Shown here in pieces: positions 2,029 through 63,887 of a stretch of 64,000 nucleotides of DNA (positions are counted from its first letter, which is position 1; each line of letters opens with the position of its first letter). The notes under the pieces are model-generated. The model was not told the origin of the DNA, made no database searches, and saw only the letters and a list, made by a program, of their open reading frames with translations. The translations under genes were made by a program, and so were the position numbers. Source of the stretch: a phage; the NCBI GenBank assembly GCA_037431425.1, contig GCA_037431425.1_4129.1, one strand, 5' to 3'.

Positions 2029-3441
2029 ATGGCTAAAAGTAAAAAAACAGAAAATCATAATATCGATAACCAAACGCTAACTCTACTAGATTATAACAGT
2101 TCTGATTATGTGAATACCACATCATTAGAGTATTCAATGTACACACTAGATCGTGCAATTCCTGGCATTGACGGTCTAAAGAGTTCACAACGAAAAGCAA
2201 TTTTCACATTATCTAAAATCAGTGGTGAAATTAAAACAGTATCATGTGCTGGTAAAATGATCAGCGATGGCATCTATCTTCATGGTGACACATCTGCATC
2301 AGGAACACTTCAGAACTTAGCATCACCAGTAGCCAATAATTATCCACTAATAGGTAAACGTGGTGGATTTGGTACACAAGTAAACAGCACACCAGCATCT
2401 GCACGTTACACATATGTGAGGAAGAATAAGAGTACTGAGATGCTTGTTTTGCGTGATGTGGATATTATTCCAATGAAAGAGAACTATGACGGGACAACAT
2501 ACGAACCAGTTCATTTCTTGCCTATCATTCCATTATCATTGTTTGGTAATGATAGTATGTCAGTTGGTTATAAGAGCACAATTCTACCACATAAAATTGA
2601 AGATATTATTGATAATTGTATTCGTGCTATTGATAAAAAACCACTAAAAGAAATGACACCATACTATGTGTCATGTGGTGCAAGCGATGTAGTAACCAAG
2701 CTGGATGAAAACAAGTACGAGTTTTATGGTAAAGCACAAGTCATTGATGCAAGTACTGTTAAAGTTACAGGATTACCACCTAATTATGGTATTGAGAAGT
2801 TCATTGAAAAACTCATCAAGATGAGTGATGATGGGGAAATTCGTGATTATGACAATAACAGTACTGATGTAATTGATATTACAATTAAACTTCCACGTGG
2901 AACGTCAGCTAAATGGACAGAGATGGATGTTATTGAGTATTTTGGTATTAACAAAAAAATAACTCAGCATTTAACTGTTCTTGGGGAAAATGGTAAAGTA
3001 AAAGTTTACGATACTACTATGGACTTGATTAAAGACTTTGTGGATTTTCGTTTCAAATATTATATCAAGCGTTATGAAAAGAAACTTGATGATTGTGCCG
3101 CAGAGGTTCGTTATAAAATTCTAATTAAAGAATGTTTCGATAATGATATGATTGCTAAGGTAAAAGGATTTGCCAACCGTGCGGAGATGGTTGAATTCGT
3201 TAAATCATTAAATGTCGAAATTCAAGCAACTGAAGATAATATTCAAAGCATTGTAAACTTCCCTTCATATCGCTGGACACAAGATAATTATCAATCAGTT
3301 CTACAAGATATCCAGGACAATCTAGATTTGATGGATAAGTACAATGAATTACTATCTAACCATGATCTGATTTGGGATATTTATAAATACGAACTTAAAG
3401 AACTGAAAAAGATTGATTTCACACCTAAATCTGATAATTGA
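2029..3441 (+). CDS. DNA topoisomerase II medium subunit (T4 gp52-like, GyrA-type)
   Basis: 470 aa; motifs YSMYTLDRAIPGIDGLK, ASARYTYVR, FLPIIPLSLFGN match recalled gp52/GyrA N-terminal domain. Confidence 0.9.
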   Translation: MAKSKKTENHNIDNQTLTLLDYNSSDYVNTTSLEYSMYTLDRAIPGIDGLKSSQRKAIFTLSKISGEIKTVSCAGKMISDGIYLHGDTSASGTLQNLASPVANNYPLIGKRGGFGTQVNSTPASARYTYVRKNKSTEMLVLRDVDIIPMKENYDGTTYEPVHFLPIIPLSLFGNDSMSVGYKSTILPHKIEDIIDNCIRAIDKKPLKEMTPYYVSCGASDVVTKLDENKYEFYGKAQVIDASTVKVTGLPPNYGIEKFIEKLIKMSDDGEIRDYDNNSTDVIDITIKLPRGTSAKWTEMDVIEYFGINKKITQHLTVLGENGKVKVYDTTMDLIKDFVDFRFKYYIKRYEKKLDDCAAEVRYKILIKECFDNDMIAKVKGFANRAEMVEFVKSLNVEIQATEDNIQSIVNFPSYRWTQDNYQSVLQDIQDNLDLMDKYNELLSNHDLIWDIYKYELKELKKIDFTPKSDN

Positions 3442-3490: not shown

Positions 3491-3528
3491 ATCAATAGAT
3501 AATGGTAGCTTGGCTATGGAGAATTACA

Positions 3529-5922
3529 ATGAGAACTTTTACCCCACGTTGGGATATAAAAGCCGATGCTCGATATATACAAGAAGGACAAGACATTCTT
3601 TTGCGTTTGAGTATCAACAAAAATAGCACAACGGATGCTAGTTATGTATTAAATGAAGATGAATACTTAGAGATGATTCTTACAATACAATGCTTGGATA
3701 GTTCAGGTACAGTATTTGAACCAGAATCGCATTATACTTTTTTTGTGGGTAATGATGAAAACAGTTTTATACCCATTTCTGAAGGAACTACTGGAAATAA
3801 ATTTGTAAATGGAAAACATAAATGTAAAATTAGTAAAACACAATTTAACTTATCAGGCAGTTCTAATAGTGAAGATGTATATTTTATAAAAATTCATTGT
3901 AAAAATGACGGGACATACAACAATACCGAAATTATCAATTTTTATTTACAGGCAGTAAATGTGATGTATTTTGGTAATATTTCACCGAGTGGTGAGTTGG
4001 GAACAACTGACGCATCAATAACATATGATAGTCAGGAAGTTTGGGTTACACCTGGTGTAGAGATTGGTGATGATAAAAAACCATACTGTATTGGAGATGT
4101 TGATTATGGTTCTAACAGTACATTATTTGTACAAGGATTTGGTAGAAGACGACCTTTTATATTAGGTACTGACATTACGGATGATATTACACCCCGCGTA
4201 TTTTTCCCAGCTTATAGATTGGTTGATATGGATATATCGGAAGTTCCGCAGAATCACATCACAAATGATTATGCCGTTTTTAAACCAGCCCAAACCGTAT
4301 GGCCTATTTCGGGTATAAACAAAGAAGTTAAAGTTAACATTCAAAACAAAAACGGAAGCACAATTGATACTGGAATGATTTTCAACCCAAATGGTCAATT
4401 ACTTCAAACATTTTTGTACGAATCTGAAGCATGTGACACATATTTTAAGGTTGAGATTGTAGACATTTTAAGTACTTATGTAGATGATAGTGAGAGATTT
4501 GCAATAAATCAACGTTACAAAGCATATCAAATGTGGGTATGCCCAGAAGACATAGACACTATATATTCAATCTCTGATAAACCATTACCAAATCATTTGT
4601 ACCAATTAAAAGATAATGTAGTTTATCCATATGTAATTACTGGTGAGTATGACGATGGTACACTTAAGCCGGTATATGATAGTAGTGATTGGCTAGATTT
4701 AGGTTATTACGATCCAACTCTTGGTGAAAATATCATTGGAATGCAAAAAATATTCAGGGTATTAGTTAATGCAGAAGAAGGGAATAACATAAACTTCATA
4801 ACTGAGAGTGACTTAGGAACCATTCATGTAGGGGAATACTTTGGGAATAGCGTCTATCCTAAGATAGAAACTGATAGTAAAAGTCAGGTTTCTTATATAT
4901 TAGATGGTGGTGATGATATTAGAAAATATGGAATGGACTTAACACCAGATGGTTATCTAGTAGGAACTGCATTTGCTAAAAGTATGGATTTTAGTGCTAA
5001 TGATGATATTAAACTTTCATTTTACGTTAAAGCATTCAGTTCTGACGGTGGTGAGGCAAAAAAATTATTTAATCTTAAAATCGTAAGAGGTTTTGGACAA
5101 AATTATTTAAGTGCACATGTTCTACCATCTGTTTCTTTTGAAAGAGATTGGTTTAAATGTATTAGTACTTCATCATTTACTAACCAATTATTTTTTCGTC
5201 AATCCGATGATAGATATGGTCTTCAAAAAGTACCAAAAATGCTATTGAAAGAAAATTTTCTAAGTCAAACGTACCCATACACTAATCTTTCTGATATTAA
5301 GAAAGTATTACGAAAGAGTATTGTTGATACAAATGGAACCACTATTCCGAATGGTAAATTTAAAATGGTAATGGGTAATTATAAATTGTTATCAGCACTT
5401 GACAATCAAGGAAATTTGCAATATGATTTATTGTACCGTGAAGTTTTACCTGAAGGTTCGTTGGTGTCAGTGTCCAAAAATCCACGTCAGTACACACAAA
5501 TTGACAACGGTCTACTGGGTGAACTGTTCGGCTTACGACAAAACATATTCAAAGCAATTGGTGAAGATACAACCAACTTGATCAAAGATCCTACAGATTT
5601 ACAAAACCGTGGTATGTATGTTGATGCTATACCTAGTGTTAGTGAAGAGATGCTTGATACTGTTCCTAGGTTTATGAATCACCCCTATATTGAAAATAAC
5701 CTACAGAAAAAATTCATGCCTATAATTCCAGTTGCATATTGTCTGCCAGGCAAAGGTGAAGCATTTTTCAACACTTTACTACAGAATAATGAACATGGTA
5801 CAATGGTCGGTCTAGAATTTGAAATTACATCGGTGGAGTTTGGGTATTTTTCACATGAATCAGATAATTATGTACCTGATACATTTGTAATTACATTACC
5901 AAACAATAACATAGGAGTTTAA
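3529..5922 (+). CDS. large hypothetical protein, possibly virion-associated (late-promoter context)
   Basis: 798 aa ORF from ATG 3529 with GGAGA RBS; track ORF starts 3502; Gly/Asn/Tyr-rich, no catalytic motif recognised. Confidence 0.6.
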   Translation: MRTFTPRWDIKADARYIQEGQDILLRLSINKNSTTDASYVLNEDEYLEMILTIQCLDSSGTVFEPESHYTFFVGNDENSFIPISEGTTGNKFVNGKHKCKISKTQFNLSGSSNSEDVYFIKIHCKNDGTYNNTEIINFYLQAVNVMYFGNISPSGELGTTDASITYDSQEVWVTPGVEIGDDKKPYCIGDVDYGSNSTLFVQGFGRRRPFILGTDITDDITPRVFFPAYRLVDMDISEVPQNHITNDYAVFKPAQTVWPISGINKEVKVNIQNKNGSTIDTGMIFNPNGQLLQTFLYESEACDTYFKVEIVDILSTYVDDSERFAINQRYKAYQMWVCPEDIDTIYSISDKPLPNHLYQLKDNVVYPYVITGEYDDGTLKPVYDSSDWLDLGYYDPTLGENIIGMQKIFRVLVNAEEGNNINFITESDLGTIHVGEYFGNSVYPKIETDSKSQVSYILDGGDDIRKYGMDLTPDGYLVGTAFAKSMDFSANDDIKLSFYVKAFSSDGGEAKKLFNLKIVRGFGQNYLSAHVLPSVSFERDWFKCISTSSFTNQLFFRQSDDRYGLQKVPKMLLKENFLSQTYPYTNLSDIKKVLRKSIVDTNGTTIPNGKFKMVMGNYKLLSALDNQGNLQYDLLYREVLPEGSLVSVSKNPRQYTQIDNGLLGELFGLRQNIFKAIGEDTTNLIKDPTDLQNRGMYVDAIPSVSEEMLDTVPRFMNHPYIENNLQKKFMPIIPVAYCLPGKGEAFFNTLLQNNEHGTMVGLEFEITSVEFGYFSHESDNYVPDTFVITLPNNNIGV

Positions 5923-9487: not shown

Positions 9488-10054
9488 ATGGAAGATTTAG
9501 ATTATACAGATAATGCTATTCAGCAGTTGTATGATAATAGTGGTATGTTAGATATACTTCTTGCTGTTGAGAAATACTTCGATGATAACGATTTATATGC
9601 TTATAAAGGTATTATCGAGGGTGAATTGGTTGAGGGACCAATTGTAAGTAAATATTGGTGTACAGTTACATTTAAATATTATCGTGAAAACTTTCCCGAT
9701 CCTACAGCGTTCTCAATATTGGAGAAACATGGCACTAAAGTATACGTCAAAGCTGATTATGAAATAACACCAATTGAAGAACCAAATCGACAAGCAGATA
9801 TGAAAAGTATTGCAACACAGACTGGTTCTGTGCGTATACCAAAAAATGAACGAATTCCGGTTCTATTGGTTAGAGTTCAAATCCCACGAAATTTAATTAA
9901 TCCAGAAAGTTTTGATGAATATAAACTTATGGCATCTGAATTTAATAGTAACCCAATGAATTCTCCTGAAAATATCGAAGAACCAGTTACTGGGGATGAT
10001 GTTGACTTAGATGTTGATGTAACTGACAATACACAAGAAGGTGGAATGCAATGA
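9488..10054 (+). CDS. hypothetical protein
   Basis: 188 aa ORF; GAGGA RBS. Confidence 0.55.
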   Translation: MEDLDYTDNAIQQLYDNSGMLDILLAVEKYFDDNDLYAYKGIIEGELVEGPIVSKYWCTVTFKYYRENFPDPTAFSILEKHGTKVYVKADYEITPIEEPNRQADMKSIATQTGSVRIPKNERIPVLLVRVQIPRNLINPESFDEYKLMASEFNSNPMNSPENIEEPVTGDDVDLDVDVTDNTQEGGMQ

Positions 10055-10731
10055 AAACGAAATTAAATGAGCAAGGATTACGTCCACAGGTTCTTAAAGA
10101 TTTGATTCATCCTATTATTAGTGTTGATGAATATACTCCTAAAATTGAAGATAGTAATATTGTAATTATGTTTCAGGTTCTGAATAATTTCGATGCTGCA
10201 TATGATTTATCTTCTTTCATCGAAAAATCACCGATTGATGCGATTGACACTGAGGCGGCAGAAACTCCTAATTTGGATGGTCGCTATCAAGTTTATGTGG
10301 AAATGGAACGAAATGCGGAGTTTCCTGAAAAACTTTTACGTTTAATTAAAACTATCGAAAATATTTGTCCTGATCCTGGTTGGAAAATCCAACTATATGG
10401 TGTCAATGATCCAATTGATGTTGATTTCGATGAAATACAACAAAGAATTGACTTAGGTATCCCAAGTTCAATTAGTGAGTTTCTTGACTATGCTGGGGTT
10501 TCTGTGATTAAAGAAGGTAATATGTTGACACTGAAAACTGCATATGGTAAATTGCATTATAGTTCAGGGAGTGGTTTTGTTTCTGAATCATATGTTAAGA
10601 AACTATTAAAAAATGATACACAGTTGGATACATCACGTCTTAGTTCTATATTGGGTGAAAGCTATACAGTACTACGCAGTGGTGATCAATACGTGATTGG
10701 AAGAAATGGGAAATATTTGGTGTTACGATGA
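10051..10731 (+). CDS. hypothetical protein
   Basis: 226 aa; start overlaps upstream stop (ATGA). Confidence 0.55.
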   Translation: MKTKLNEQGLRPQVLKDLIHPIISVDEYTPKIEDSNIVIMFQVLNNFDAAYDLSSFIEKSPIDAIDTEAAETPNLDGRYQVYVEMERNAEFPEKLLRLIKTIENICPDPGWKIQLYGVNDPIDVDFDEIQQRIDLGIPSSISEFLDYAGVSVIKEGNMLTLKTAYGKLHYSSGSGFVSESYVKKLLKNDTQLDTSRLSSILGESYTVLRSGDQYVIGRNGKYLVLR

Positions 10732-24452: not shown

Positions 24453-26333
24453 ATGAAACCTATCCGAGTACTATCTCTTTTTAATGGGATGAGTGTAGGA
24501 TACATGGCATTAAAAGATGCTGGTATCCCTGTTGAAAAATATTATTCATCCGAAATTGACAAATTTGCTATAGCTGAATCCCAAGCTAACTTCCCCGATA
24601 TCATCCAATTGGGTGATGTAACTAGATGGAGAGAATGGGATATTGAATGGGATAAGATAGATCTACTGATGGGTGGTTTTCCATGCTTCCCAGCAGGAAC
24701 TATGATAATGACAAATAAAGGTCATAAAGATATAAAAGATATAAAAATTGGTGATATGGTTCTTACACACACTGGACAGTACCAAAAAGTATTGAGTACT
24801 GGTGTTAAAAAGGCTCCCACTCGTATTATTACAGGTCAAGGTCACCTTCCAATTGAATGTACCGATAATCATCCATTTTGGAGTAGGGAACGTCTAGCCA
24901 ATAAATGGAATAATCAACACCGAAGATATGATTCTGTGTTTTCTGAACCGCAATGGGTAAATGCTATAGATCTTACTAAACAAAGTTATATTTGTAATGT
25001 TAAAAATATTACACATAATACAGTAAGTGATAAAGATGAAAAATATTGGTATTTTGTTGGTCGTTTTATGGGTGATGGATGTGCTAGTGTATCTAATAAC
25101 AAATACAGTATTACTATTGTAGATTCATTAGATAAAGTTGATGAATTGAAAAAATGTTTTGATGATTTTGGATACAAATACACATTAGCTATTAAAGATA
25201 ATCATGTAAGATGTGATATATATAGCAAAAAGCTTTATGATGAATTAATATGTATTGGGCATAAATCACAAAACAAATGTTTACCACCTGAAATATTCAA
25301 TGAAACTATCAATAACAAAGAAGCATTTATTAAAGGATACATGGATGCAGATGGTTGTGAGGATAAACACAATAAAAAATACAAATTTACCACCACAAGT
25401 TATAAAATAGTTCTTGGTATGCAACAGTTAATCTTAGATACTTATCAACGTCATTGTACTATTAGTCAAACTGTTCCAAAAACAAAAAAATATATAAAAA
25501 ATAAGTTGGTTAATCAGCTTCCGTATTGGAATGTTCATTTTAGCTATAATAAAATTAAAAGAGATGATGTAATATATGATGAAATTTATATATGGAATCG
25601 TGGTGTAAAAAGTAATGTACCAACCGGAGAATGGAAAACCGTTTACAATATTGAAGTTGCAGTAGATAACACATATACAGCGAACAATATTGTAGTTCAT
25701 AACTGCCAAGCGTGGTCAGTTGCAGGTAAACAGGGTGGAATAAATGATCCTCGTGGTATGTTATTCCATACAATGGTTGATATTTACCAGCACATAAAAA
25801 GTCTCAATCCAGACTTGAAAGTACTGTTCGAGAATGTTAAAATGAAAGAAGATTTCAAGCAATACATTAATAGTGTTCTTGAGATGACACCAGTACTGAT
25901 AAATTCCCAGCATTATACGCCTCACTTCAGGCAGAGATATTACTGGTACAGTACTGATAAACTTTTTATACCACCTGCATTATCAAATGCACCTAAACTT
26001 CAAGATATTATTGAAGATGGTTGGTACACTGACAGAACCGCTTCGTACTGTATAGATGCTAACTATTTTAAGGGTGGGGATTGTAACCAGTACTTTAATA
26101 AATCAAGAAGACAAATTGTTTTCAAAGAACCTGATATCGATAGGGATTTCCTTCTTGAACATGGTAAGCGAAATGTGGACTATCGTCATTTAACAGTGCA
26201 AGAGTGTTGCATGTTGCAAGGAATTGATGTAAACTACTTCAAAGTTAGTAGTTCAACACAAGCATACAAAATGCTTGGGAATGGATGGACTATGCCAGTT
26301 ATATCACACTTACTACGAGATATATTCTTTTGA
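24453..26333 (+). CDS. DNA (cytosine-5)-methyltransferase precursor containing an intein
   Basis: 626 aa; motif I SLFNGMSVG; motif IV GGFP|CQAWSVAG split by 340-aa insertion; ENV motif (LFENV) in C-extein; extein about 286 aa. Confidence 0.8.
   Translation: MKPIRVLSLFNGMSVGYMALKDAGIPVEKYYSSEIDKFAIAESQANFPDIIQLGDVTRWREWDIEWDKIDLLMGGFPCFPAGTMIMTNKGHKDIKDIKIGDMVLTHTGQYQKVLSTGVKKAPTRIITGQGHLPIECTDNHPFWSRERLANKWNNQHRRYDSVFSEPQWVNAIDLTKQSYICNVKNITHNTVSDKDEKYWYFVGRFMGDGCASVSNNKYSITIVDSLDKVDELKKCFDDFGYKYTLAIKDNHVRCDIYSKKLYDELICIGHKSQNKCLPPEIFNETINNKEAFIKGYMDADGCEDKHNKKYKFTTTSYKIVLGMQQLILDTYQRHCTISQTVPKTKKYIKNKLVNQLPYWNVHFSYNKIKRDDVIYDEIYIWNRGVKSNVPTGEWKTVYNIEVAVDNTYTANNIVVHNCQAWSVAGKQGGINDPRGMLFHTMVDIYQHIKSLNPDLKVLFENVKMKEDFKQYINSVLEMTPVLINSQHYTPHFRQRYYWYSTDKLFIPPALSNAPKLQDIIEDGWYTDRTASYCIDANYFKGGDCNQYFNKSRRQIVFKEPDIDRDFLLEHGKRNVDYRHLTVQECCMLQGIDVNYFKVSSSTQAYKMLGNGWTMPVISHLLRDIFF
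24684..25703 (+). mobile_element. intein with LAGLIDADG homing-endonuclease domain
   Basis: starts CFPAGTMIMT (block A), TDNHPFW (block B TxxH), two LAGLIDADG-like motifs (FVGRFMGDGCAS, FIKGYMDADGCE), ends VVHN followed by Cys +1. Confidence 0.8.
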
Positions 26334-30766: not shown

Positions 30767-31053
30767 AAATTTTAGAAGTTTTACTTGAAAAAGATGCATC
30801 TGGTACTCTTTATGTTGGTAATGATTTCAGTCCTGATCCAATTGATATGATGCAGCGTATTCAATCACTGACCCAATCAATTTCAGTTAAACAACCTTTC
30901 CTAAAAGAATTGGAAATTCATTGCGATAAAGACATGGAGCAGCATGATAATGTTATTTCTGATATCAAAAATCTGTTGACAAAGAACGGATATGTGGAGT
31001 ATAATCCTCCTATCGTAATCGTTATCCCTGGCTTCATGAGAGGAACATTGTAA
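30763..31053 (+). CDS. hypothetical protein
   Basis: 96 aa; overlapping start/stop. Confidence 0.5.
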   Translation: MKILEVLLEKDASGTLYVGNDFSPDPIDMMQRIQSLTQSISVKQPFLKELEIHCDKDMEQHDNVISDIKNLLTKNGYVEYNPPIVIVIPGFMRGTL

Positions 31054-31322
31054 TGACGAAAGAAGAAATGAAATCTCGCTTAAGCGAACTGAAGAAAGAA
31101 CGCAAACTAGTCCGTTTGGACTGGGACATTCTTAACAAAAAAGATGAGCAATCATATGCTAATTGGAGTTCTGATAAAGTTCGCAATGAACGTAGTAAAG
31201 AAGACAACAAACAGTTTATGGCACTGTCCAAGCGTTTATCTGCATTAAATAGTGAAATTACAGGTCTACAGAAAGAAATTATTTCGATTTTACGAGATGA
31301 GATTAAATCACTATATGAATAA
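31053..31322 (+). CDS. hypothetical coiled-coil protein
   Basis: 89 aa, charged helical. Confidence 0.5.
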   Translation: MTKEEMKSRLSELKKERKLVRLDWDILNKKDEQSYANWSSDKVRNERSKEDNKQFMALSKRLSALNSEITGLQKEIISILRDEIKSLYE

Positions 31323-31611
31323 ACATGAAGTATTAGTATTAGATAATAAATTCTATGTACCAAATAATGATAGTACTGAAACATATTATCTAATTAATAA
31401 AATTATGACTGAAACTAATACTTGTTGTCGTCAAATCCCAGGAAAATATGAGTTCAGTCAGTCTATTGGCTATTATCGTTATAATCCATTGGAATCATTT
31501 ACAATTGACGTGTTGAAAGTTATTGACATTCTTGTACAGAATGGGTATAATGAAAAACATGTAAATAACTCAGAATTACCAGTTTCAAAAATCGTTATTT
31601 CTAATAATTAG
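31315..31611 (+). CDS. hypothetical protein
   Basis: ATG 31315 overlapping upstream stop; track start 31252. Confidence 0.45.
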   Translation: MNKHEVLVLDNKFYVPNNDSTETYYLINKIMTETNTCCRQIPGKYEFSQSIGYYRYNPLESFTIDVLKVIDILVQNGYNEKHVNNSELPVSKIVISNN

Positions 31612-43892: not shown

Positions 43893-44678
43893 ATGAACAA
43901 CATTTTCTTCAAAACTATTTCTTTCAAAAAAGAATCTTACTCATATTCCTATGTTGATGGTAATGTGCTTAATATTGTTCTGAATGGGGTAGATGTTCCT
44001 GTGAAATTCGACTCACATGAAGAAGCAGTCGATGGGGCAAAAGAATTGAATTCAATTCTCAATGGTGAAGATAGTCAAAAACAAAAGGTAAAATCCGATT
44101 TAGATGCACTTTTGGAAAAAATCAAAAGTGGTGAAGTTCTTGAAATTTTAGAAAACTGTAATGAAAAACTACGTAAAGTAGTCAATGATGTTCATGACCA
44201 GATTCAAGAAAAAGCACTAGACCAAGCCTTTAAACATGTATCTAAAAAAGCTGAATCACGTATTGATAATATGGTCAAAAACATTGATGATGTACTTTCA
44301 CATCTCTTTACCAAAGAATACGAATGTAACACAGACGAGCCAGTTACTGAATCTAAAAAAGAAAAACGCAACTTTGGTTCAAGTGATGATGTATTTGGTT
44401 TTTCTAATGTACGAACAAGTGCAGATGAACCAAAGGAAATCAGTGAGATGCTCATTGGTGACATGACAACAAAACAACTTCGTAATGAAATTGACAAGTT
44501 TGTTACTACATCTATCAAATCTGAACGTGCACAAAATATGTTCAAAAGTATCAGTGCTAATTTTGGTACTGAAGCCACCGAACAAGCACTAAATGCATTT
44601 AAAGAATTGATTTATAATGTTGCCATTCGCAATCCAGAAAAAACACTCGAAGAAGTCCTACGAGAAAATTTCAAATAA
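43893..44678 (+). CDS. hypothetical coiled-coil protein
   Basis: 261 aa; RBS AAGGAG. Confidence 0.6.
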   Translation: MNNIFFKTISFKKESYSYSYVDGNVLNIVLNGVDVPVKFDSHEEAVDGAKELNSILNGEDSQKQKVKSDLDALLEKIKSGEVLEILENCNEKLRKVVNDVHDQIQEKALDQAFKHVSKKAESRIDNMVKNIDDVLSHLFTKEYECNTDEPVTESKKEKRNFGSSDDVFGFSNVRTSADEPKEISEMLIGDMTTKQLRNEIDKFVTTSIKSERAQNMFKSISANFGTEATEQALNAFKELIYNVAIRNPEKTLEEVLRENFK

Positions 44679-44690
44679 TTAGATAAAAGT

Positions 44691-44720
44691 AAAGCCACTA
44701 CTTTCGTAGTGGCTTTTTTA
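44691..44720. terminator. bidirectional intrinsic terminator between convergent genes
   Basis: AAAGCCACTAC-tttc-GTAGTGGCTTT with T-runs on both sides. Confidence 0.7.
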
Positions 44721-45875
44721 TTATGCGTTATAACCAACAATAACGACAGTACAATCAATTGGATTTACTACTTTAACAGTTACGTTATCATCTTCATCAA
44801 ACTGTATTTCGCTATGAACTACCTGTTTGGTTGAAGAATACAATTGAACTTGTGGTAATACTTTACCATGTTCAGTAACTGGAATAGATAGTGAATACAT
44901 AGAGTCTTCATCTTCTACCCAATCACTCTCCACATATTCCTTATGGAATGGGGTGGTGTGTAGTGTTTTGCCCATAATACGCAAAGACACAGGCGAATTA
45001 TCGCTTTGGTTCACTGTAATATCACCTTTATCATCAACAGACATATCAACACCTATTTGGTGTAAATCATCGCTATATGCTTGGAGAACTAATTTATTAC
45101 CACGTTTATGAACATCATATGGTACGACCGCAGAAAAAACTCCATCACCTGATGGTTGGAATTGCGTCAATTGAACCGGAGTAACATAATCAACATCCTC
45201 GCCGTGTTCTTGAACATCAAATTCAACAACTTTAGTGTTATAATATGGGGAAGTTAATGTGGCAGTACCTTTGCCTTTTTGTTGAATAGCATCTACTTGA
45301 ATCGTAAACTCATCATCAACAATTTGTTTAGTGACGTATTCTTTCCCTTCTGGTAATACAAATTTAATTTCCATGCCATTGGTATCAATTTCAGAACCAG
45401 CATTGAATAGTTTACCACTAATTGATTTATCACCAACAAATACTGGTGAAATAATAATATTATCAATATCCCTATCAATAATACTACATTCTGGGGTATA
45501 CATATTATAAAGAGATTTTGAATTTCCTAAAATAGTTTTGTGTAGTAGGAATTTATAAACAAATCCAGTATCTGCCTCTTGCTGCTCATTAGTGTGTCCA
45601 CGAACAAAGAAACTGTTTCTATTAATTTCACTTAATAGTTCATCATTAGATTTACTATAATTTAGCAGATAACCTTTATTATCTTTAGTTGTTAGTTGGA
45701 CTTTACGGTAAATTATATTAGTTCTTGGGTCAACCAAATCATATAATTTGTGACTTCTCTGACGATAGATTCTAATATTTTTAAGTTTAGTTCCGTCATT
45801 AAGTATCGCTCCATCAACGACATAACCACATTCGCCAAACTTGTATCTACCTGCTGACGCTATAGACCTTGACAT
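44721..45875 (-). CDS. hypothetical protein (only confident minus-strand gene)
   Basis: 384 aa ORF; protein-like composition; flanked by terminator and AT-rich divergent promoter region. Confidence 0.65.
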   Translation of the reverse strand: MSRSIASAGRYKFGECGYVVDGAILNDGTKLKNIRIYRQRSHKLYDLVDPRTNIIYRKVQLTTKDNKGYLLNYSKSNDELLSEINRNSFFVRGHTNEQQEADTGFVYKFLLHKTILGNSKSLYNMYTPECSIIDRDIDNIIISPVFVGDKSISGKLFNAGSEIDTNGMEIKFVLPEGKEYVTKQIVDDEFTIQVDAIQQKGKGTATLTSPYYNTKVVEFDVQEHGEDVDYVTPVQLTQFQPSGDGVFSAVVPYDVHKRGNKLVLQAYSDDLHQIGVDMSVDDKGDITVNQSDNSPVSLRIMGKTLHTTPFHKEYVESDWVEDEDSMYSLSIPVTEHGKVLPQVQLYSSTKQVVHSEIQFDEDDNVTVKVVNPIDCTVVIVGYNA

Positions 45876-45933
45876 TTATCCTTCCTTTGTTATAATTATT
45901 ATAACATATTTATTGTATAGATTAAAAAAATGA

Positions 45934-45962
45934 TTGACACGTGTAAGAAAAACTGATACTAT
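45934..45962 (+). promoter_or_regulatory. putative sigma70-type promoter (TTGACA-17-TACTAT)
   Basis: exact -35, weak -10. Confidence 0.35.
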
Positions 45963-45992
45963 AACATTTAATTATTAAGTGAGGATTTTTGT

Positions 45993-46577
45993 ATGAATGT
46001 TATTGAAGATAGATTAGTACTGAAAAATGGAAAAATGACTGTTAAGTTATATAAAGACGAAGCTGATTCATTCATGGCAAAAGCTATTGAAAAATCAGAA
46101 CGATATAAATTATTAGCACCTGCTAGTAAATCACCGTATGGTTTTAATCATGCCCATAGTCATTTTGTAGGAATGGTTTGTGAACATGCATCTTTAGTTC
46201 TTTTTAATGAAATTGAAAATAATACTGGTATTAAACTTAATATTGATCCTGCATTTCAAAATGATGCACGCGATGGGGAGTGTGATATTAAGGTAAACAA
46301 CCTTCGTATAGAAGTAAAAGGTATTAAGTATAAATCATGGACCGACTTTGGACCGTGTGTCAGCACTCGACAGTTGAAAAATATCCAAAAAAAAGCTGAC
46401 GTAATACTATGGGTATTGTATAATGAGAAAAAACAAGAGTTCACGTTTGAGGGTTTCAACTATGTGAAAGATATTAGTTCTATCCCAGTTGTGCTCACGG
46501 GTGTCCCAGGGCGACCAATGATTGAAAATCATCCAGTACTGAGTATTATCAAACCACTTCAGGAGTTACCGTTATGA
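45993..46577 (+). CDS. hypothetical protein, possible PD-(D/E)xK nuclease fold
   Basis: 194 aa; D...ECDIKV...EVKG arrangement; RBS GTGAGGA; tentative. Confidence 0.55.
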   Translation: MNVIEDRLVLKNGKMTVKLYKDEADSFMAKAIEKSERYKLLAPASKSPYGFNHAHSHFVGMVCEHASLVLFNEIENNTGIKLNIDPAFQNDARDGECDIKVNNLRIEVKGIKYKSWTDFGPCVSTRQLKNIQKKADVILWVLYNEKKQEFTFEGFNYVKDISSIPVVLTGVPGRPMIENHPVLSIIKPLQELPL

Positions 46578-50664: not shown

Positions 50665-51630
50665 GTGAAAAAACTTGATTTGAATACAATTGCAGATGAA
50701 GTTCTGGATGAATGCTTTGGTAATGAAGAAGTGAATACGCTGGATGCGTTAGAACCAGTTCAAGAAAAAGATAACATTGACGAGAAAAATAATGGTAATT
50801 TCAAGTTTAATATTAGTCTTAAGCGACCAGCAAATGTAACAAATGAAGATATTATTCGTGATATTCAAGCAGGTATTAACGTAAAGAAAAATACTGAACT
50901 ATTAGTTCGTTATAATTACGGTTTGATTATTGATGTTGCAAGTAAATGCACGTGTTATATTCCATTTGAAGATAAGATTTCATATGGCATTGAGGGATTC
51001 ATGCGAGCATTAAAAACATTTGACCTTAGTAAGAATGTAAAGTTCGCTACGTATGCATCGTCAAGTATCTATATGACTGTATACAATGAAAGCTCAGATG
51101 CTAATCATCTGGTCCACTTCCCTCGTTACATGAGTGTTAATAAGATACAAGTGAAACGCTTCTGTCATAATTATGAGCGTCAGCATGGTTGTCGTCCTAC
51201 ACCTGAAATTATTTCTGAAGAGACTGGTATTGAAATCCAGCACGTTAAGAATTGTTTATTATTCCAAAGTGAATATACTTCACTGGATGCACCATTGGAT
51301 GGTGTTTCTGATGGGACGATGAGTGATATTCTGCATTCATCTGAAGGTGATTATAATCTTAATGTTGACAGTATTCGTGCACCGTTGCGTTATACCATCA
51401 ACGAACTAACTAATGAGTTGAGTGCTAAGGAATGTGAGATTATTCAACGTGTTCATGGATTAGGTGAATTTAATCCTGAAACACTACGTGAAATTGCTGA
51501 TAGTGGTTTTATTGATGACAATGGTAAGTGTGTAAAATCCAGATCTTCGGTTCATCGTAAATACAGTGATGCTCTTAAGAAACTCAAGAAATTAGTGCTC
51601 GCTAAAGGGTACGAATACGAAGATTTCTAA
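50665..51630 (+). CDS. RNA polymerase sigma factor, sigma-70 family (regions 2 and 4)
   Basis: 321 aa; GTG start after AGGAGAAG RBS; region 2-like FMRALKTFD...KFATYASSSI and region 4 HTH-like LREIADSGF...SRSSVHRKYSDALKKLKKL. Confidence 0.6.
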   Translation: MKKLDLNTIADEVLDECFGNEEVNTLDALEPVQEKDNIDEKNNGNFKFNISLKRPANVTNEDIIRDIQAGINVKKNTELLVRYNYGLIIDVASKCTCYIPFEDKISYGIEGFMRALKTFDLSKNVKFATYASSSIYMTVYNESSDANHLVHFPRYMSVNKIQVKRFCHNYERQHGCRPTPEIISEETGIEIQHVKNCLLFQSEYTSLDAPLDGVSDGTMSDILHSSEGDYNLNVDSIRAPLRYTINELTNELSAKECEIIQRVHGLGEFNPETLREIADSGFIDDNGKCVKSRSSVHRKYSDALKKLKKLVLAKGYEYEDF

Positions 51631-51636
51631 ATTGTA

Positions 51637-51663
51637 AAGGTTGGCATATGCCAACCTTTTTTA
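51637..51663 (+). terminator. intrinsic terminator
   Basis: AAGGTTGGCAT/ATGCCAACCTT palindrome followed by TTTTTT. Confidence 0.8.
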
Positions 51664-51947
51664 TTGGGACACAGAATAAATATATGATATAATAATTATG
51701 TACAATCCTGTTGAATGCAGAAATGCATATAAATTAGAACCTGATCCTATCGAAAACGTAGATGGCAGATGAGCAGTTCAGCAGTGCGATGAGCAGAAGA
51801 AACCCGTCAGAAGTGGGCATAGTTTGAACCCCTCACGGCAATGCGGCTCAATAAAGAACTCCGATAAGCATACAGAGAGTTCCTAGATAGACATATAAGG
51901 AATCACACCTTACCAGATTTGCTAAGGGAGTCTTGAAATAAGACAGC

Positions 51948-52253
51948 TTGAGCTTTGATTGTATAGAGTTTCAAGTGAGTGCTGGGATGAAAAGACCAGT
52001 GACCGTTGCATATGACCGTGATAGGGAGAAACAGAGCAACCCGCTTCCGTTTGTGATTGATCATTTTAACAATATAGATCCGTCCAAAATTCACGATACA
52101 ATAATATCCGATGCCATCAGCGTCAAGAAGAGACTTAATTGTCTCTTTTTTATTACTTTCATTCCCCTGTGGGGGGATGAAATAGTCCTCAACAAATCCC
52201 GTCAAGTATTAAAAGTCCTAGACAGTTATGAAACATTCGCGTATAATACGTAG
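51948..52253 (+). CDS. questionable ORF in compositionally atypical region
   Basis: 101 aa ORF almost fully overlapped by a 100-aa antisense ORF; region more GC-rich than surroundings. Confidence 0.3.
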   Translation: MSFDCIEFQVSAGMKRPVTVAYDRDREKQSNPLPFVIDHFNNIDPSKIHDTIISDAISVKKRLNCLFFITFIPLWGDEIVLNKSRQVLKVLDSYETFAYNT

Positions 52254-52311
52254 TATTAGAAGCGAACAGACATCTCGAAGAGATGGATGATTAACTATTA
52301 AGGAATATCCA

Positions 52312-52748: not shown

Positions 52749-52749
52749 A

Positions 52750-62167: not shown

Positions 62168-62551
62168 ATGGTTGATAAATGGAATAAGAAAGAACCATCT
62201 CATGATGTGGATATTTCTGACCTAGATAATGAACATAAACACAAGTACCTAGATTCACTAGGACTACTAAAGCCGGACCAAAGTATTGCACATGATCGTC
62301 CTTCACGTGAAAAAGCATTCAGTCTGGAATCTCTAGGTCATGAGCTAAATCGTGTGTTTGAAGAACACCCAATCTATGTACGTGATATTATTGAGAAACT
62401 TAAAGTAACTCCTAAAGAGCACTTTAAAGCAACTGTACACTCTGCATTCAATGCATTACATGAAGCACTTAAGAAAACTCACAACCTTCGTAAGATTCAT
62501 GATGATATTGTAAATGCAATTGAAAGTGAAAAGCATAAGTTCAAAAAGTAA
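62168..62551 (+). CDS. hypothetical basic protein, paralogue of N-terminal region of 62616 protein
   Basis: 127 aa; shared YLDSLGLLKPDQ / YVNSLGLLNATQ and IEKLKVTPKEHFKATVHSAFNAL / VKELQSVPKEELKVKAQAVLDAM segments; RBS TAGGAG. Confidence 0.6.
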   Translation: MVDKWNKKEPSHDVDISDLDNEHKHKYLDSLGLLKPDQSIAHDRPSREKAFSLESLGHELNRVFEEHPIYVRDIIEKLKVTPKEHFKATVHSAFNALHEALKKTHNLRKIHDDIVNAIESEKHKFKK

Positions 62552-62552
62552 T

Positions 62553-62582
62553 AGAAAGGGTTGACTTCGGTCAGCCTTTTTT
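62553..62582 (+). terminator. intrinsic terminator with UUCG tetraloop (copy 2 of 3)
   Basis: GGTTGAC-TTCG-GTCAGCC followed by TTTTTTT. Confidence 0.85.
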
Positions 62583-62589
62583 TATATAC

Positions 62590-62597
62590 TATAAATA
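62590..62597 (+). promoter_or_regulatory. T4-type late promoter-like TATAAATA
   Basis: exact TATAAATA 19 nt upstream of ATG 62616. Confidence 0.4.
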
Positions 62598-62615
62598 TAA
62601 TCATAGAGAAAAAAC

Positions 62616-63887
62616 ATGAAATCTATGGAGAGAAATCAAATGCCAAGTAATTTTACTGATAAAAATGGTGGTAACATGGCAGGTCACTCGGATAAATGGA
62701 GTGAACGCAACCGCCGCCCAAATAGTTACCAAGCAGGCCAAGGTTCCCGTGGCTCCAGAAACCAAGGAACGGGACTTGCTGGCAAGGCAAACGCAGAAGC
62801 AGGTGAAGTTAAGAGTACTGAGAACATGACTGAGCTAGAAAAGCTACGTTATGTTAATTCATTAGGACTTCTTAATGCTACACAAAAACAACGTCTAGCT
62901 GATATGGAACGCGAAGAAAAAGAAAAAACAACTACTAAAGAAGAATCAAAACAGGAAGCACCGAAGCCGTCTAACCCTGTCAAAGAACTGTCTGATAAGT
63001 TAGGTAAGATCTTTGCAAATAAACCCCAACTTATTCAAGGTATTGTCAAAGAATTACAATCTGTACCTAAAGAAGAATTAAAAGTCAAAGCACAAGCTGT
63101 TCTGGATGCAATGAAAGGAAATACCAGTACTGAACCAACTGAAGTGTTCAGTACTATTATGCGTGCACTGGAAGGTAAACAACAAGGTGAAGAACGTGGT
63201 GATGAAGTAAGTCTTGAACGTATTCTTAAAACATTTGATAGTATTGGGAAAGAAGATCGTGTTAATGCACAACAGGTTAAAAATGTTCTAGCAAAATTGG
63301 AAAACCGTCTAGAAGGTAAAGATGATAAGATTAAATTGGTATCTGATGTAGTTGACAATGCACTTAAATCTTATGTACAAGGTGAAAAGAGTCGTTTTGT
63401 GACCGCGATGGATGCAGCATTCAATACTATGAAAAAGTACGAAGCTGACCATGGTGAGAAGGTTACACCTGATGGTTATCTGATGCGTGATGATGAAGAA
63501 GGTGCAGTAGAACAGAATGATGTTCATTCTGACGAAGATATTGATGACATGGAAGCTGAACTGTCACAAGATCGCCAAATGACTGAAAAATCACACAACG
63601 AACTAAAGAAATTAATGCAGTGGGTCGCTGATGTTGGAGAAAAAGCGGGTGCTGATAAGAAAAGTATAAACCGAAATCTTAGTTGGATTAAAGATAAAGT
63701 AGGTAACAACGCTCGCAAACTACAAAAAGCATGGACTGATGTAGTGAATGGTGCAGTAGATATTGACGTTGAATCTGGTGAAGCATATGATTATGCATTG
63801 ACTACACTTGATGATTCTTTTCGTGACTACGAAAAAGGAAACGTGACTCCTTGGGAAAAGGACATAATGAGCAAATACGGCAAATGA
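62616..63887 (+). CDS. hypothetical highly charged protein (possible late/virion internal protein)
   Basis: 423 aa, K/E/D-rich; N-terminal region paralogous to 62168 product. Confidence 0.6.
   Translation: MKSMERNQMPSNFTDKNGGNMAGHSDKWSERNRRPNSYQAGQGSRGSRNQGTGLAGKANAEAGEVKSTENMTELEKLRYVNSLGLLNATQKQRLADMEREEKEKTTTKEESKQEAPKPSNPVKELSDKLGKIFANKPQLIQGIVKELQSVPKEELKVKAQAVLDAMKGNTSTEPTEVFSTIMRALEGKQQGEERGDEVSLERILKTFDSIGKEDRVNAQQVKNVLAKLENRLEGKDDKIKLVSDVVDNALKSYVQGEKSRFVTAMDAAFNTMKKYEADHGEKVTPDGYLMRDDEEGAVEQNDVHSDEDIDDMEAELSQDRQMTEKSHNELKKLMQWVADVGEKAGADKKSINRNLSWIKDKVGNNARKLQKAWTDVVNGAVDIDVESGEAYDYALTTLDDSFRDYEKGNVTPWEKDIMSKYGK

What the first reader, a model, noticed from the sequence alone, without database searches (positions are those of the whole stretch)
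44691..45992. Single reverse-strand gene in a plus-strand genome segment, bracketed by a bidirectional terminator and a divergent promoter region
44721-45875 is the only convincing minus-strand gene in 64 kb. Its insulated, morons-like architecture suggests independent regulation or acquisition; the 384-aa product has no recognisable catalytic motif.
Basis: seen in the sequence. Interest (0 to 1): 0.4.

Follow-up and report, generated by a model that had tools for sequence, protein, structure and literature searches.

The report
Reverse-strand late gene for Ig-like virion protein
The lone backward-facing gene in this stretch of a giant E. coli phage genome is an old, conserved, non-essential gene for a particle-surface protein made of antibody-like domains, probably switched on late by its own promoter, and not a recently acquired foreign gene.

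Summary
44721..45875(-) is a real 384-aa gene and the only credible minus-strand gene in the 64 kb. It ends at a bidirectional hairpin terminator (44691-44716). It starts in a 117-nt region that holds two plus-strand sigma-70-type promoters and a minus-strand T4-like late-promoter motif.

The "moron/acquisition" reading does not hold. The window is an Asteriusvirus-type jumbo phage. The gene is the ortholog of 121Q gp155, phAPEC6 gp077, CBB_496 and GAP32_475. It has the same position and the same reversed orientation in four genera plus an unclassified Xanthomonas phage, down to 31% protein identity. Its codon usage is native.

The orthologs were found in purified virions by mass spectrometry. 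The protein has a conserved basic N-terminal module followed by three variable acidic Ig-like domains. That is the Hoc / Hex-Dec design, but the anchor module is unrelated to either. The same module heads paralogs of about 125-1859 aa.

The gene is dispensable: it has decayed to fragments in the closest relative (ph0011) and is frameshifted in SD-6_S16.

Its place on the particle (capsid hexamer centre or tail) is unresolved. Interest is modest.

The parts
44721..45875 (-). CDS, 384 aa (43.3 kDa, pI 5.1). Ortholog of 121Q gp155, phAPEC6 gp077, CBB_496 and GAP32_475; a virion-associated protein.
   Evidence: ORF. PHROG 10468 'virion structural protein', full length, E=3e-162. 61 phage records hold a full-length homolog. 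phAPEC6 gp077 was found in virions with 10 unique peptides and 37.8% coverage (PMC7247149). CBB_496 and GAP32_475 were MS-positive (PMC5259590 supplement).
45468..45875 (-). N-terminal module (aa 1-136): beta-rich domain at aa 17-125 plus a conserved linker at 126-136. Basic (pI 9.3) and the most conserved part of the protein. Proposed particle-anchoring domain.
   Evidence: Mean pairwise identity is 57-64%, against 36-44% for the Ig domains, and 29 of the 43 invariant columns lie here. AF2 pLDDT about 80-95 over aa 20-125. No PDB fold match, best E=0.45. The same module sits at residue 1 of 87 cluster representatives of 124-1859 aa. pI.
44724..45467 (-). Three tandem Ig-like beta-sandwich domains (aa 137-224, 225-303, 304-384). 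Acidic (pI 4.4) and variable. Proposed outward-projecting string.
   Evidence: AF2 model, pLDDT mostly 85-95. Foldseek matches to tandem Ig/BIg/FN3 arrays such as SiiE, Sidekick and filamin, E about 5e-5. CarboxypepD_reg and Big_6 hits in some orthologs. 121Q annotation 'structural protein, Ig-domain'.
44691..44716 (.). Bidirectional intrinsic terminator shared by the convergent genes 43893..44678(+) and 44721..45875(-).
   Evidence: Called on both strands. -17.7 and -18.1 kcal/mol. An equivalent hairpin lies directly after the stop codon in 9 phages, with 5 different stem sequences. Retained in ph0011 although the gene is gone.
45900..45914 (-). Late-promoter-like motif A-ATAAATA-TGTTATA. The ATAAATA core begins 38 nt upstream of the ATG.
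   Evidence: (A/G)(A/G)TAAATA is conserved 30-40 nt upstream of the ATG in 9 phages, although the rest of the spacer diverges. The CBB ortholog's copy is published as predicted late promoter Porf_496, ATAAATACTTTATA (main text). ATAAATA is depleted in the window, 14 against 46 +/- 7 expected. It lies 10-130 nt upstream of 5 of 10 virion genes against 0 of 116 others, Fisher p=1e-6.
45879..45889 (-). Shine-Dalgarno region (CAAAGGAAGGA) of the minus-strand gene.
   Evidence: Read from the sequence. GGAG/GGAGG is conserved at the same place in the orthologs.
45869..45896 (+). P1: perfect sigma-70-type promoter, TTGACA-16 nt-TATAAT with TGn. The -35 hexamer is the reverse complement of codons 1-2 (ATG TCA A) of the minus gene. 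It drives the plus-strand genes to the right.
   Evidence: 12/12 match; coordinates. Conserved in 121Q, phAPEC6 and Ecwhy_1, and kept in ph0011 after loss of the gene.
45919..45962 (+). P2: A-tract (UP-like), then TTGACA-17 nt-TACTAT with TGn. Second plus-strand promoter, in front of 45993..46577.
   Evidence: A TTGAC -35 is present at the equivalent place in most relatives. The CBB paper places RpoD-like promoters with UP-like elements in the equivalent early-gene region.
43893..44678 (+). Convergent upstream neighbour, 261 aa. Ortholog of 121Q gp154 and phAPEC6 gp078c; also a virion protein.
   Evidence: PHROG 14991, E=1e-88. gp078c had 4 peptides and 21.4% coverage in virions. No ATAAATA upstream.
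45993..46577 (+). Divergent neighbour, 194 aa. Ortholog of 121Q gp156; highly conserved, function unknown.
   Evidence: PHROG 16175, E=5e-119. 97/95/90/59/64% identity to 121Q, Ecwhy_1, A4, EJP2 and CBB. Present next to the reversed gene in every relative examined.

Best explanation
The gene encodes an accessory protein of the virion surface, built like Hoc, Hex-Dec or pb10.

How the protein is thought to work: a conserved, basic N-terminal module (aa 1 to about 125, plus a conserved linker) fastens it to the particle. Three variable, acidic Ig-like domains project outward. There they would mediate weak, non-essential interactions with host or environmental surfaces, or affect particle dispersion.

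How the gene is thought to be expressed: it is an autonomous late transcription unit. A T4-like late promoter motif (ATAAATA, 38 nt before the ATG) and a strong Shine-Dalgarno sequence start it, and a bidirectional hairpin ends it. The unit lies backwards in the gap between two plus-strand early transcription units. The same hairpin stops the left-hand unit, and two sigma-70-type promoters restart the right-hand one. Early read-through therefore cannot express the gene.

History: the arrangement is ancestral to this phage group and was not acquired recently. The gene can be lost without loss of viability.

Shown: the gene and its signals; conservation of position, orientation, motif and hairpin; presence of the orthologous proteins in virions; the domain architecture; the loss events.
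Inferred: late timing, the anchoring role of the N-module, outward projection, and the adhesive or dispersive role.
Unresolved: whether it attaches to the capsid (the hexamer centre is slightly favoured) or to the tail or collar.
For: Identity and virion association:
- PHROG 10468, full length.
- phAPEC6 gp077 (78% identical): 10 unique peptides and 37.8% coverage in purified virions.
- CBB_496 and GAP32_475 were also detected by MS.

Architecture:
- AF2 mean pLDDT 83: an N-domain plus three beta-sandwich domains.
- The fold matches are Ig arrays.
- The N-module is conserved (57% mean pairwise identity) while Ig3 is variable (36%).
- N-module pI is 9.3; the Ig string is 4.4.
- The N-module is always at residue 1 of 87 representatives, 124-1859 aa long. 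It is followed by 1, 5, 6 or 7 Big_2 domains, or by Invasin/Big_1 or HYDIN-like Ig domains. It also heads RaK2 gp039 and a ph0011 890-aa protein.
- This repeats the Hoc and Hex-Dec pattern of a conserved anchor with a variable number of Ig domains (PMC10385173; PMC12609058).

Late promoter:
- The motif is conserved in 9 phages.
- It is published as Porf_496 in CBB.
- It is depleted genome-wide and enriched before virion genes, p=1e-6.

Ancient and native:
- Same locus and same reversed orientation in 121Q, phAPEC6, Ecwhy_1, A4, EJP2, fHe-Yen9-04, CBB and XaC1.
- Codon score is typical of the genome.
- The terminator is kept through compensatory stem changes.

Dispensable:
- ph0011 has flanks 96-99% identical but keeps only fragments of the gene and has no copy elsewhere.
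- SD-6_S16 has a 58-nt frameshifting deletion.

Capsid site:
- 121Q and phAPEC6 have an unassigned protein or fibre at each hexamer centre.
- phiKp24 has none, and its relatives RaK2 and K64-1 lack the 384-aa ortholog.
Against: - No expression data exist for this phage group, so late timing rests on a motif.
- The location in the particle is not known.
- The N-module matches no solved capsid-binding or tail-binding domain, so its anchoring role is argued only from conservation, position and analogy.
- Other virion genes in the window sit on the plus strand, some with the same motif. Reversal is therefore not required for late expression.
- The hexamer-centre correlation rests on two structures, and phiKp24's own gene content was not examined here.
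- phAPEC6 also has unassigned tail and collar decoration densities.
- Paralogs carrying the N-module have been annotated 'major tail protein', although that label seems to come from their Big_2 domain.
- The ph0011 and SD-6_S16 defects come from database assemblies that were not re-verified.
Confidence: 0.7

Rival explanations
1. It is the same kind of protein but sits on the tail. It would be a collar or sheath decoration, or the anchor for the hair-like fibres on the tail of these phages, and not a capsid decoration.
For: phAPEC6 shows an unassigned decoration protein at two levels of the tail, and fibres at three annular positions on the sheath. CBB has tail whiskers whose genes are unknown. 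N-module paralogs are annotated 'major tail protein' in RaK2, CBB and XaC1.
Against: The 'major tail protein' label traces to the Big_2 domain, which is shared with siphophage tail proteins, and not to any localisation. Outside the RaK2-like group the matches cover only the Big_2 part. GAP32, which has not been reported to have whiskers, has the ortholog. A string of three Ig domains would be roughly 15 nm long by analogy with Hoc (180 A for four domains), far shorter than the 119-nm hairs.
Confidence: 0.3
2. It is a moron: a recently acquired, independently expressed cargo gene inserted between two operons.
For: The architecture looks the part. It is a single reversed gene with its own promoter and terminator at an operon boundary. 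It is absent from the closest relative, ph0011. The intergenic region next to it is only 79% identical between the window and ph0011, against 96-99% in the flanks, which suggests local recombination.
Against: It has the same position and orientation in four genera plus an unclassified Xanthomonas phage, down to 31% identity. Its codon usage is native. It carries the phage's own late motif. ph0011 holds decayed remnants of the gene, which means loss and not absence of gain. The product is a virion component.
Confidence: 0.04
3. It is an essential adsorption or receptor-binding component of the baseplate or tail fibres.
For: Ig-like domains occur in receptor-binding proteins. The fHe-Yen9-04 depositors annotated it 'possible surface protein, responsible for cell interaction'. 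The distal domains evolve quickly.
Against: Two isolates that were propagated in the laboratory lack a functional copy. The protein is conserved across phages of Escherichia, Salmonella, Erwinia, Yersinia, Serratia, Pectobacterium and Xanthomonas, which argues against a host-specific receptor binder. The gene lies far from the tail-fibre gene clusters.
Confidence: 0.08
4. It is an internal head protein, or an ejected protein packaged with the DNA.
For: Jumbo phage virions carry many internal proteins. Virion mass spectrometry cannot tell inside from outside.
Against: Tandem Ig-like strings on a conserved terminal module are the hallmark of external decoration proteins. There is no sign of a propeptide or of low-complexity internal-protein features. 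The string is acidic, as in Hoc.
Confidence: 0.04

Closest known systems
121Q gp155 / phAPEC6 gp077 / CBB_496 / GAP32_475 (PHROG 10468, 'virion structural protein, Ig-domain')
   Same: Orthologs at 78%, 78%, 39% and 39% identity over the full length. Same locus, same reversed orientation, same late motif and same terminator. Found in virions by mass spectrometry.
   Different: Nothing essential. The window's allele is 100% identical to a protein on a 126-kb contig labelled E. coli, and 86% identical to the nearest phage record, UE-S1. The role and the place in the particle have not been determined for any member.
T4 Hoc (highly immunogenic outer capsid protein)
   Same: Similar size (376 against 384 aa). 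One conserved anchoring domain plus three Ig-like domains. Acidic string. Non-essential. Paralogs with different numbers of Ig domains share the anchor. In T4, hoc lies outside the main head-gene run.
   Different: No sequence similarity: BLASTP E=0.97, N-module HMM -0.9 bits. The anchor is C-terminal in Hoc and N-terminal here. No fold match to any PDB chain. Capsid binding is not shown here.
Hex-Dec of Felixounavirus Bas63 / Sf14 gp20 (hexamer-centre decoration)
   Same: An N-terminal anchoring domain followed by 1-4 Ig-like domains. The anchor is conserved and the number of Ig domains varies. The gene lies far from the structural module. The charge is negative, as in Hoc.
   Different: The Hex-Dec CapBD is a two-lobed domain with helices. 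Our N-module is beta-rich. It scores 0.4 bits against the homolog phiEa21-4 gp38 and has no Foldseek match, although chains homologous to gp38 (9c2d_S, 9ncf_S) are in the library.
T5 pb10 (decoration protein)
   Same: [quoted passage not shown]
   Different: One Ig domain only. No fold match of our N-module to any PDB chain. Not compared directly by sequence.
T4-type late promoters (TATAAATA) and the 'Promoter 3' ATAAATA motif of CBB and GAP32
   Same: The motif AATAAATA lies 38 nt before the ATG. It is also present before other virion genes and before tRNA genes of the window. The ortholog's copy is listed as Porf_496.
   Different: 7 of the 8 positions of the T4 consensus. No start site has been mapped. 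The CBB authors found a gp55-like sigma factor but no gp33 homolog.

Membership tests
PHROG 10468 / 121Q gp155 orthologous group | Full-length sequence similarity to the family profile | tested here: met
   E=3.2e-162, residues 1-383 on profile positions 1-384 of 384. 61 phage records with at least 80% coverage.
PHROG 10468 / 121Q gp155 orthologous group | Conserved genomic position: reversed, between the gp154-like and gp156-like genes | tested here: met
   In CBB, fHe-Yen9-04 and XaC1 a methyltransferase gene lies between it and the gp154-like gene.
PHROG 10468 / 121Q gp155 orthologous group | Product present in purified virions | not testable with these tools
   Shown for the orthologs in phAPEC6, CBB and GAP32. 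Not shown for this phage.
T4 Hoc family | Homology to the Hoc C-terminal capsid-binding domain | tested here: not met
   BLASTP against T4 Hoc, best E=0.97. The N-module HMM scores Hoc -0.9 bits. No Hoc chain among the Foldseek hits.
T4 Hoc family | String of Ig-like domains attached to one conserved terminal domain | tested here: met
   The order is reversed: the anchor is N-terminal.
T4 Hoc family | Binds the centre of major-capsid-protein hexamers | not testable with these tools
   Circumstantial only: there is an unassigned hexamer-centre density in 121Q and phAPEC6.
Hex-Dec (Bas63 / Sf14 gp20 / phiEa21-4 gp38) | Homology to the N-terminal two-lobed CapBD | tested here: not met
   The broad N-module HMM scores phiEa21-4 gp38 0.4 bits. 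There is no Foldseek hit, although chains 9c2d_S and 9ncf_S, which match gp38 over its N-terminal region, are in the library. The RaK2 paralog matches gp38 over the Big_2 domain only.
Moron (independently transcribed, recently acquired cargo gene) | Own promoter and terminator, set between genes of another transcription unit | tested here: met
Moron (independently transcribed, recently acquired cargo gene) | Sporadic distribution or foreign composition indicating recent acquisition | tested here: not met
   Conserved in place across four genera plus a Xanthomonas phage. Codon score 0.30 against a genome mean of 0.27. GC content unremarkable. Absence from ph0011 is a loss that left remnants.
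T4-type late gene | TATAAATA-like -10 element at a suitable distance upstream, with no -35 element | tested here: met
   AATAAATA at 45907-45914 (-), conserved in 9 phages. Listed as Porf_496 in CBB.
T4-type late gene | Transcription late in infection, dependent on a gp55-like sigma factor | not testable with these tools
   No transcriptome found for this group. A gp55-like sigma factor is reported for CBB.

The most novel reading that the evidence does not exclude
The N-terminal module (aa 1 to about 125) would be a previously undescribed, fold-novel universal adaptor. Through it, RaK2-like jumbo phages would mount a whole set of Ig-like strings of very different length (about 210, 380, 600-650, 890 and 1550-1860 aa) on their particles. 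These proteins, including this one, would be the unassigned hexamer-centre protein and the 'hairy' capsid and tail appendages of 121Q, phAPEC6 and CBB, whose genes have not been identified. ph0011 would then be a ready-made natural knockout for assigning one of those densities.
Probability: 0.3. Interest if true: 0.5.

Novelty: new member of a known kind. Interest (0 to 1): 0.3.

Why it matters
On its own this is an ordinary result. An odd-looking reversed gene turns out to be a conserved late gene for an accessory virion protein. That corrects the "acquired moron" reading.

Three points give it some wider use.
- It defines a third anchor-plus-Ig-string family that is unrelated to Hoc and Hex-Dec. 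This supports the view that such surface strings have evolved repeatedly in large phages.
- It gives concrete candidates, and a natural null mutant (ph0011), for assigning the unidentified hexamer-centre and hair-like densities of 121Q-type jumbo phages. Both structural papers left that question open.
- A dispensable surface protein with a defined anchoring module is a natural display scaffold for phage engineering, as Hoc and pb10 already are.

Tried and rejected
- Pfam on the protein gave no family. Across the 17 orthologs there were only scattered beta-sandwich hits.
- A sequence-profile search of the PDB with the full family gave only noise, E at least 0.4.
- Foldseek with the whole model gave generic Ig arrays with low TM-scores, because the inter-domain geometry is flexible. 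That says nothing about location.
- Foldseek with the N-module alone gave nothing significant. The best partial overlaps were SH3/Tudor-like barrels at E>1, and I did not take them further.
- Direct tests for Hoc and Hex-Dec membership were both negative.
- A search for paralogs inside the window found none. One marginal 12.5-bit hit in 24453..26333 was not pursued.
- I considered whether the reversed orientation is simply what late genes do in this phage. I rejected that as a rule, because other virion genes with the same motif lie on the plus strand.
- I considered whether the 31034..31384 minus ORF is a second reversed gene. It is a shadow ORF.
- A literature search for expression timing in Asteriusvirus found nothing. 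The Sharanji paper has no transcriptome or proteome.
- The CBB paper's gene numbers differ from the RefSeq locus tags. The paper's 'CBB_483' is a different, 45-aa gene; the ortholog is CBB_496.
- No complex prediction was possible (monomer models only, cap reached), so N-module docking to the capsid or sheath protein was not tested.
Full report
WHAT IS THERE

The ORF 44721..45875 on the minus strand is real: ATG start, 384 aa, TAA stop.

I trained a codon model on the long plus-strand ORFs of the window. The ORF scores 0.30 bits per codon, inside the plus-strand gene range of 0.27 +/- 0.10, with a total score of 115. The other 58 minus-strand ORFs of at least 60 aa average -0.07, and none has a total above 13.

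One other minus ORF is not simply nested in a longer plus-strand ORF: 31034..31384. It overlies three tiled plus-strand ORFs that correspond to 121Q genes 103-105.

In the annotated relative 121Q, all genes from 52 to 201 are on one strand except gene 155. The six tRNA genes of the window are all on the plus strand.

SIGNALS AT THE TWO ENDS

The 3' end. The hairpin at 44691-44716 has an 11-bp stem and a 4-nt loop. It lies 12 nt after the stop of the convergent gene 43893..44678 and 4 nt after the stop of the reversed gene. The scan calls it on both strands, and it folds at -17.7 and -18.1 kcal/mol. An equivalent hairpin lies directly after the stop codon of the ortholog in all eight other phages I looked at. 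These hairpins fold at -15 to -20 kcal/mol, have A-runs and U-runs on both sides, and use five different stem sequences. The structure is therefore conserved through compensatory change.

The 5' end. The 117-nt spacer holds two plus-strand sigma-70-type promoters.
- P1 is TTGACA-16 nt-TATAAT with an extended -10, at 45869-45896. It matches 12 of 12 positions.
- P2 is an A-tract followed by TTGACA-17 nt-TACTAT with an extended -10, at 45919-45962.

On the minus strand there is AATAAATA at 45907-45914, and then the Shine-Dalgarno sequence AAGGAAGGA.

WHAT PHAGE, AND IS THE GENE NATIVE?

The region matches Asteriusvirus jumbo phages (the 121Q / PBECO4 / phAPEC6 group) at about 85% nucleotide identity. 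It matches phage ph0011 at 96-99%. An identical protein is on record on a 126-kb contig labelled E. coli.

The protein matches PHROG 10468, 'virion structural protein', end to end. It has full-length homologs in 61 phage records, with hosts in Escherichia, Salmonella, Erwinia, Yersinia, Cronobacter, Pectobacterium, Serratia, Klebsiella and Xanthomonas.

In every relative inspected, the ortholog is a single gene reversed against both neighbours, and the same conserved ~190-aa gene diverges from its 5' end. The relatives were:
- 121Q, phAPEC6, Ecwhy_1, A4 and EJP2 (Asteriusvirus);
- fHe-Yen9-04 (Eneladusvirus);
- CBB (Mimasvirus);
- Xanthomonas phage XaC1, at 31% identity.

The architecture looks like a moron, but the gene is ancestral to the group.

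REGULATION

The CBB paper describes three things: an early region of short genes served by RpoD-like promoters with UP-like elements; a gp55-like late sigma factor; and a third motif, ATAAATA, upstream of structural genes in CBB and GAP32, likened to the T4 late promoter TATAAATA.

I aligned the upstream regions of nine orthologs. (A/G)(A/G)TAAATA is conserved 30-40 nt before the ATG, while the surrounding spacer diverges. The CBB copy is listed in that paper's Table S7 as predicted late promoter Porf_496, ATAAATACTTTATA. The ortholog is CBB_496 in the paper's numbering.

Within the window the motif is strongly avoided. ATAAATA occurs 14 times on both strands against 46 +/- 7 expected. AATAAATA occurs 4 times against 16 +/- 4.

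The surviving copies are placed non-randomly. One lies 10-130 nt upstream of 5 of the 10 genes whose orthologs are virion proteins, and upstream of 0 of 116 other gene calls (Fisher p about 1e-6). Three more lie 47-190 nt upstream of tRNA genes.

I conclude, by inference, that the gene is a separate late transcription unit. No transcriptome exists for this group in the library.

The plus-strand terminator and promoters P1 and P2 form an operon boundary in their own right. They are retained in ph0011 after the gene between them has gone. Reversal plus the bidirectional terminator would keep early read-through out of the gene. This cannot be a general rule, because other virion genes with the motif lie on the plus strand.

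THE PROTEIN

phAPEC6 gp077, the 78%-identical ortholog, was identified in purified virions with 10 unique peptides and 37.8% coverage. That is among the better-covered of 62 virion proteins. The ortholog of the upstream neighbour, gp078c, was also found. CBB_496 and GAP32_475 are flagged as detected in the CBB and GAP32 virion proteomes.

An AlphaFold2 model built on 17 homologs (mean pLDDT 83) shows the following parts:
- a beta-rich N-terminal domain at aa 17-125;
- a short conserved linker at aa 126-136;
- three beta-sandwich domains at aa 137-224, 225-303 and 304-384.

Foldseek matches are tandem Ig, BIg and FN3 arrays. Some orthologs hit the Pfam families CarboxypepD_reg or Big_6.

Conservation falls from the N-module (57-64% mean pairwise identity, 29 of 43 invariant columns) to the last Ig domain (36%). 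The N-module is basic (pI 9.3) and the Ig string is acidic (pI 4.4).

THE N-MODULE IS A SHARED ADAPTOR

A profile of the N-module, searched against 1.84 billion cluster representatives, finds 87 proteins, 75 of them at E no higher than 1e-10. In virtually all of them the module occupies residues 1 to about 121. Total lengths run from 124 to 1859 aa.

In the longer members the rest of the protein consists of 1, 5, 6 or 7 Big_2 domains, Invasin_D3 and Big_1 domains, or HYDIN-like Ig and fn3 domains.

Two paralogs in phage genomes were confirmed with the profile. Both start at residue 1, and each is again a lone reversed gene near a protease gene:
- RaK2 gp039, 212 aa, 58 bits;
- an 890-aa protein of ph0011, 36 bits.

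A conserved terminal domain carrying a variable number of Ig-like domains, with several such proteins in one genome, is exactly what is described for T4 Hoc (PMC10385173). It is also described for the Hex-Dec hexamer-centre protein of Felixounavirus Bas63, whose capsid-binding domain is N-terminal and whose gene also lies far from the structural module (PMC12609058).

MEMBERSHIP TESTS

The protein is not a Hoc. BLASTP against T4 Hoc gives E=0.97, and the N-module HMM scores Hoc -0.9 bits.

It is not a Hex-Dec either. I tested this in three ways.
- The Ounavirinae homolog phiEa21-4 gp38 finds PDB chains 9c2d_S and 9ncf_S over its N-terminal region and its Ig domain. Chains homologous to gp38, N-terminal region included, are therefore in the library. 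I take them to be the Sf14 and Bas63 Hex-Dec entries; that identification is my own, not read from the entry titles.
- Even so, the N-module model has no Foldseek hit better than E=0.45.
- The broad N-module HMM scores gp38 0.4 bits. The similarity between RaK2 gp039 and gp38 that underlies the 'major tail protein' annotations is confined to the Big_2 domain.

The protein therefore works like Hoc or Hex-Dec by design, but its anchor belongs to neither family and has no solved relative.

DISPENSABILITY

In ph0011, window positions 44733-45431 and most of 45489-45867 are missing. What is left is the last few codons, a 54-nt internal piece at 83-89% identity, some unalignable bases, and the start-codon region. 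No intact copy exists elsewhere in that genome.

Salmonella phage SD-6_S16 has a clean 58-nt deletion that shifts the frame after about codon 158.

These are two independent inactivations in phages that were isolated and propagated. The gene is therefore non-essential, as hoc is in T4. Both rest on database assemblies.

WHERE ON THE PARTICLE?

This is unresolved.

For the capsid: 121Q and phAPEC6 have a T=28 capsid with an unassigned protein or fibre anchored at the centre of each hexamer. phiKp24 has a capsid made of the major capsid protein alone, with an open pore at the hexamer centre. Its relatives RaK2 and K64-1 have only the 212-aa paralog and not the 384-aa ortholog.

For the tail: phAPEC6 also has unassigned collar and sheath decorations and annular fibres.

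By analogy with Hoc, which is 180 A long for four domains, a three-Ig string would be roughly 15 nm. That suits a short decoration and not the 119-nm hairs of CBB. Longer N-module paralogs could contribute to those hairs.

VERDICT

- The gene is a new allele of a known, proteomically verified but functionally uncharacterised family of jumbo-phage virion proteins.
- The most useful new points are these: the published late motif is conserved in front of the gene in nine phages; the terminator covaries; the N-terminal adaptor family has been defined and is unrelated to Hoc and Hex-Dec; and there are natural null alleles.
- Interest is modest, at 0.3.

Noticed in passing
window 51675-51700 (+); region 51631-52749: After the hairpin that follows the sigma-factor gene (50665..51630) comes GAATAAATATATGATATAATAATTATG. 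This closely resembles the element upstream of the reversed gene (CAATAAATATGTTATAATAATTATAAC). The next 1.1 kb has no convincing ORF, and 121Q has a ~720-nt unannotated gap at the same place. Rfam finds nothing there. It may be a late non-coding transcript or a set of missed small genes.
   Followed up: partly
window-wide; sites 36010, 38141, 39737 (+): ATAAATA is about three-fold depleted on both strands, 14 against 46 +/- 7 expected. Twelve of the 14 copies are on the coding strand. Three copies lie 47-190 nt upstream of tRNA genes (36057, 38331, 39818), which suggests that the phage tRNAs are also expressed late.
   Followed up: partly
window 45869-45916: The -35 hexamer of the perfect plus-strand promoter P1 is the reverse complement of codons 1-2 of the reversed gene (ATG TCA A). 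Its -10 lies in that gene's 5' leader. The late motif lies just downstream of P1's expected start site. The two promoters therefore face each other with near-coincident start points, and polymerase bound at one should exclude the other. The arrangement is conserved in 121Q-type phages (protein begins MSR) but not in CBB or GAP32 types (protein begins MAK).
   Followed up: partly
window 45868-45992 compared with L001 4325-4450 (ph0011): The spacer next to the gene is only 71-82% identical between the window and ph0011, while the flanking genes are 96-99% identical. The ph0011 spacer looks more like that of 121Q. This suggests a recombination boundary at this locus.
   Followed up: no
L013 3001-3639 (RaK2 gp039); L014 2498-5170 (ph0011 WAE77065): Two paralogs carrying the same N-terminal module are each a single gene reversed against their neighbours, and each lies near a ~597-nt 'protease' gene. 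The lone-reversed layout therefore recurs for this protein family at a second locus.
   Followed up: partly
window 45828-45830 (Cys16) and 45486-45488 (Cys130) of the minus-strand gene: Two cysteines, in the motifs FGxCG and (Y)xPxC, are invariant in all 17 orthologs. Both sit in the only low-confidence stretches of the model (aa 1-16 and 128-134). Both are absent from the paralogs. They may form an inter-subunit or partner contact, or a disulfide.
   Followed up: no
window 24453..26333 (+): A 626-aa ORF lies where 121Q has an 861-nt DNA methyltransferase gene followed by small genes, so gene content differs here. The ORF also gave a marginal 12.5-bit match to part of the N-module profile.
   Followed up: no
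whole window: A protein identical to the product is on record as 'hypothetical protein WJW27_002728 [Escherichia coli]' on a 125,904-bp contig, and also in a Logan assembly of run SRR28398425. The window is therefore probably a jumbo-phage contig inside a bacterial genome assembly.
   Followed up: partly
window 2029..3441, 3502..5922, 9488..10731, 62168..63887 (+): Several plus-strand genes in this mostly early or middle region encode proteins found in phAPEC6 virions. They include a topoisomerase II subunit (gp159c) and the orthologs of 121Q gp54, gp62, gp63, gp199 and gp201. Virion genes are scattered through the genome and not confined to one module.
   Followed up: partly
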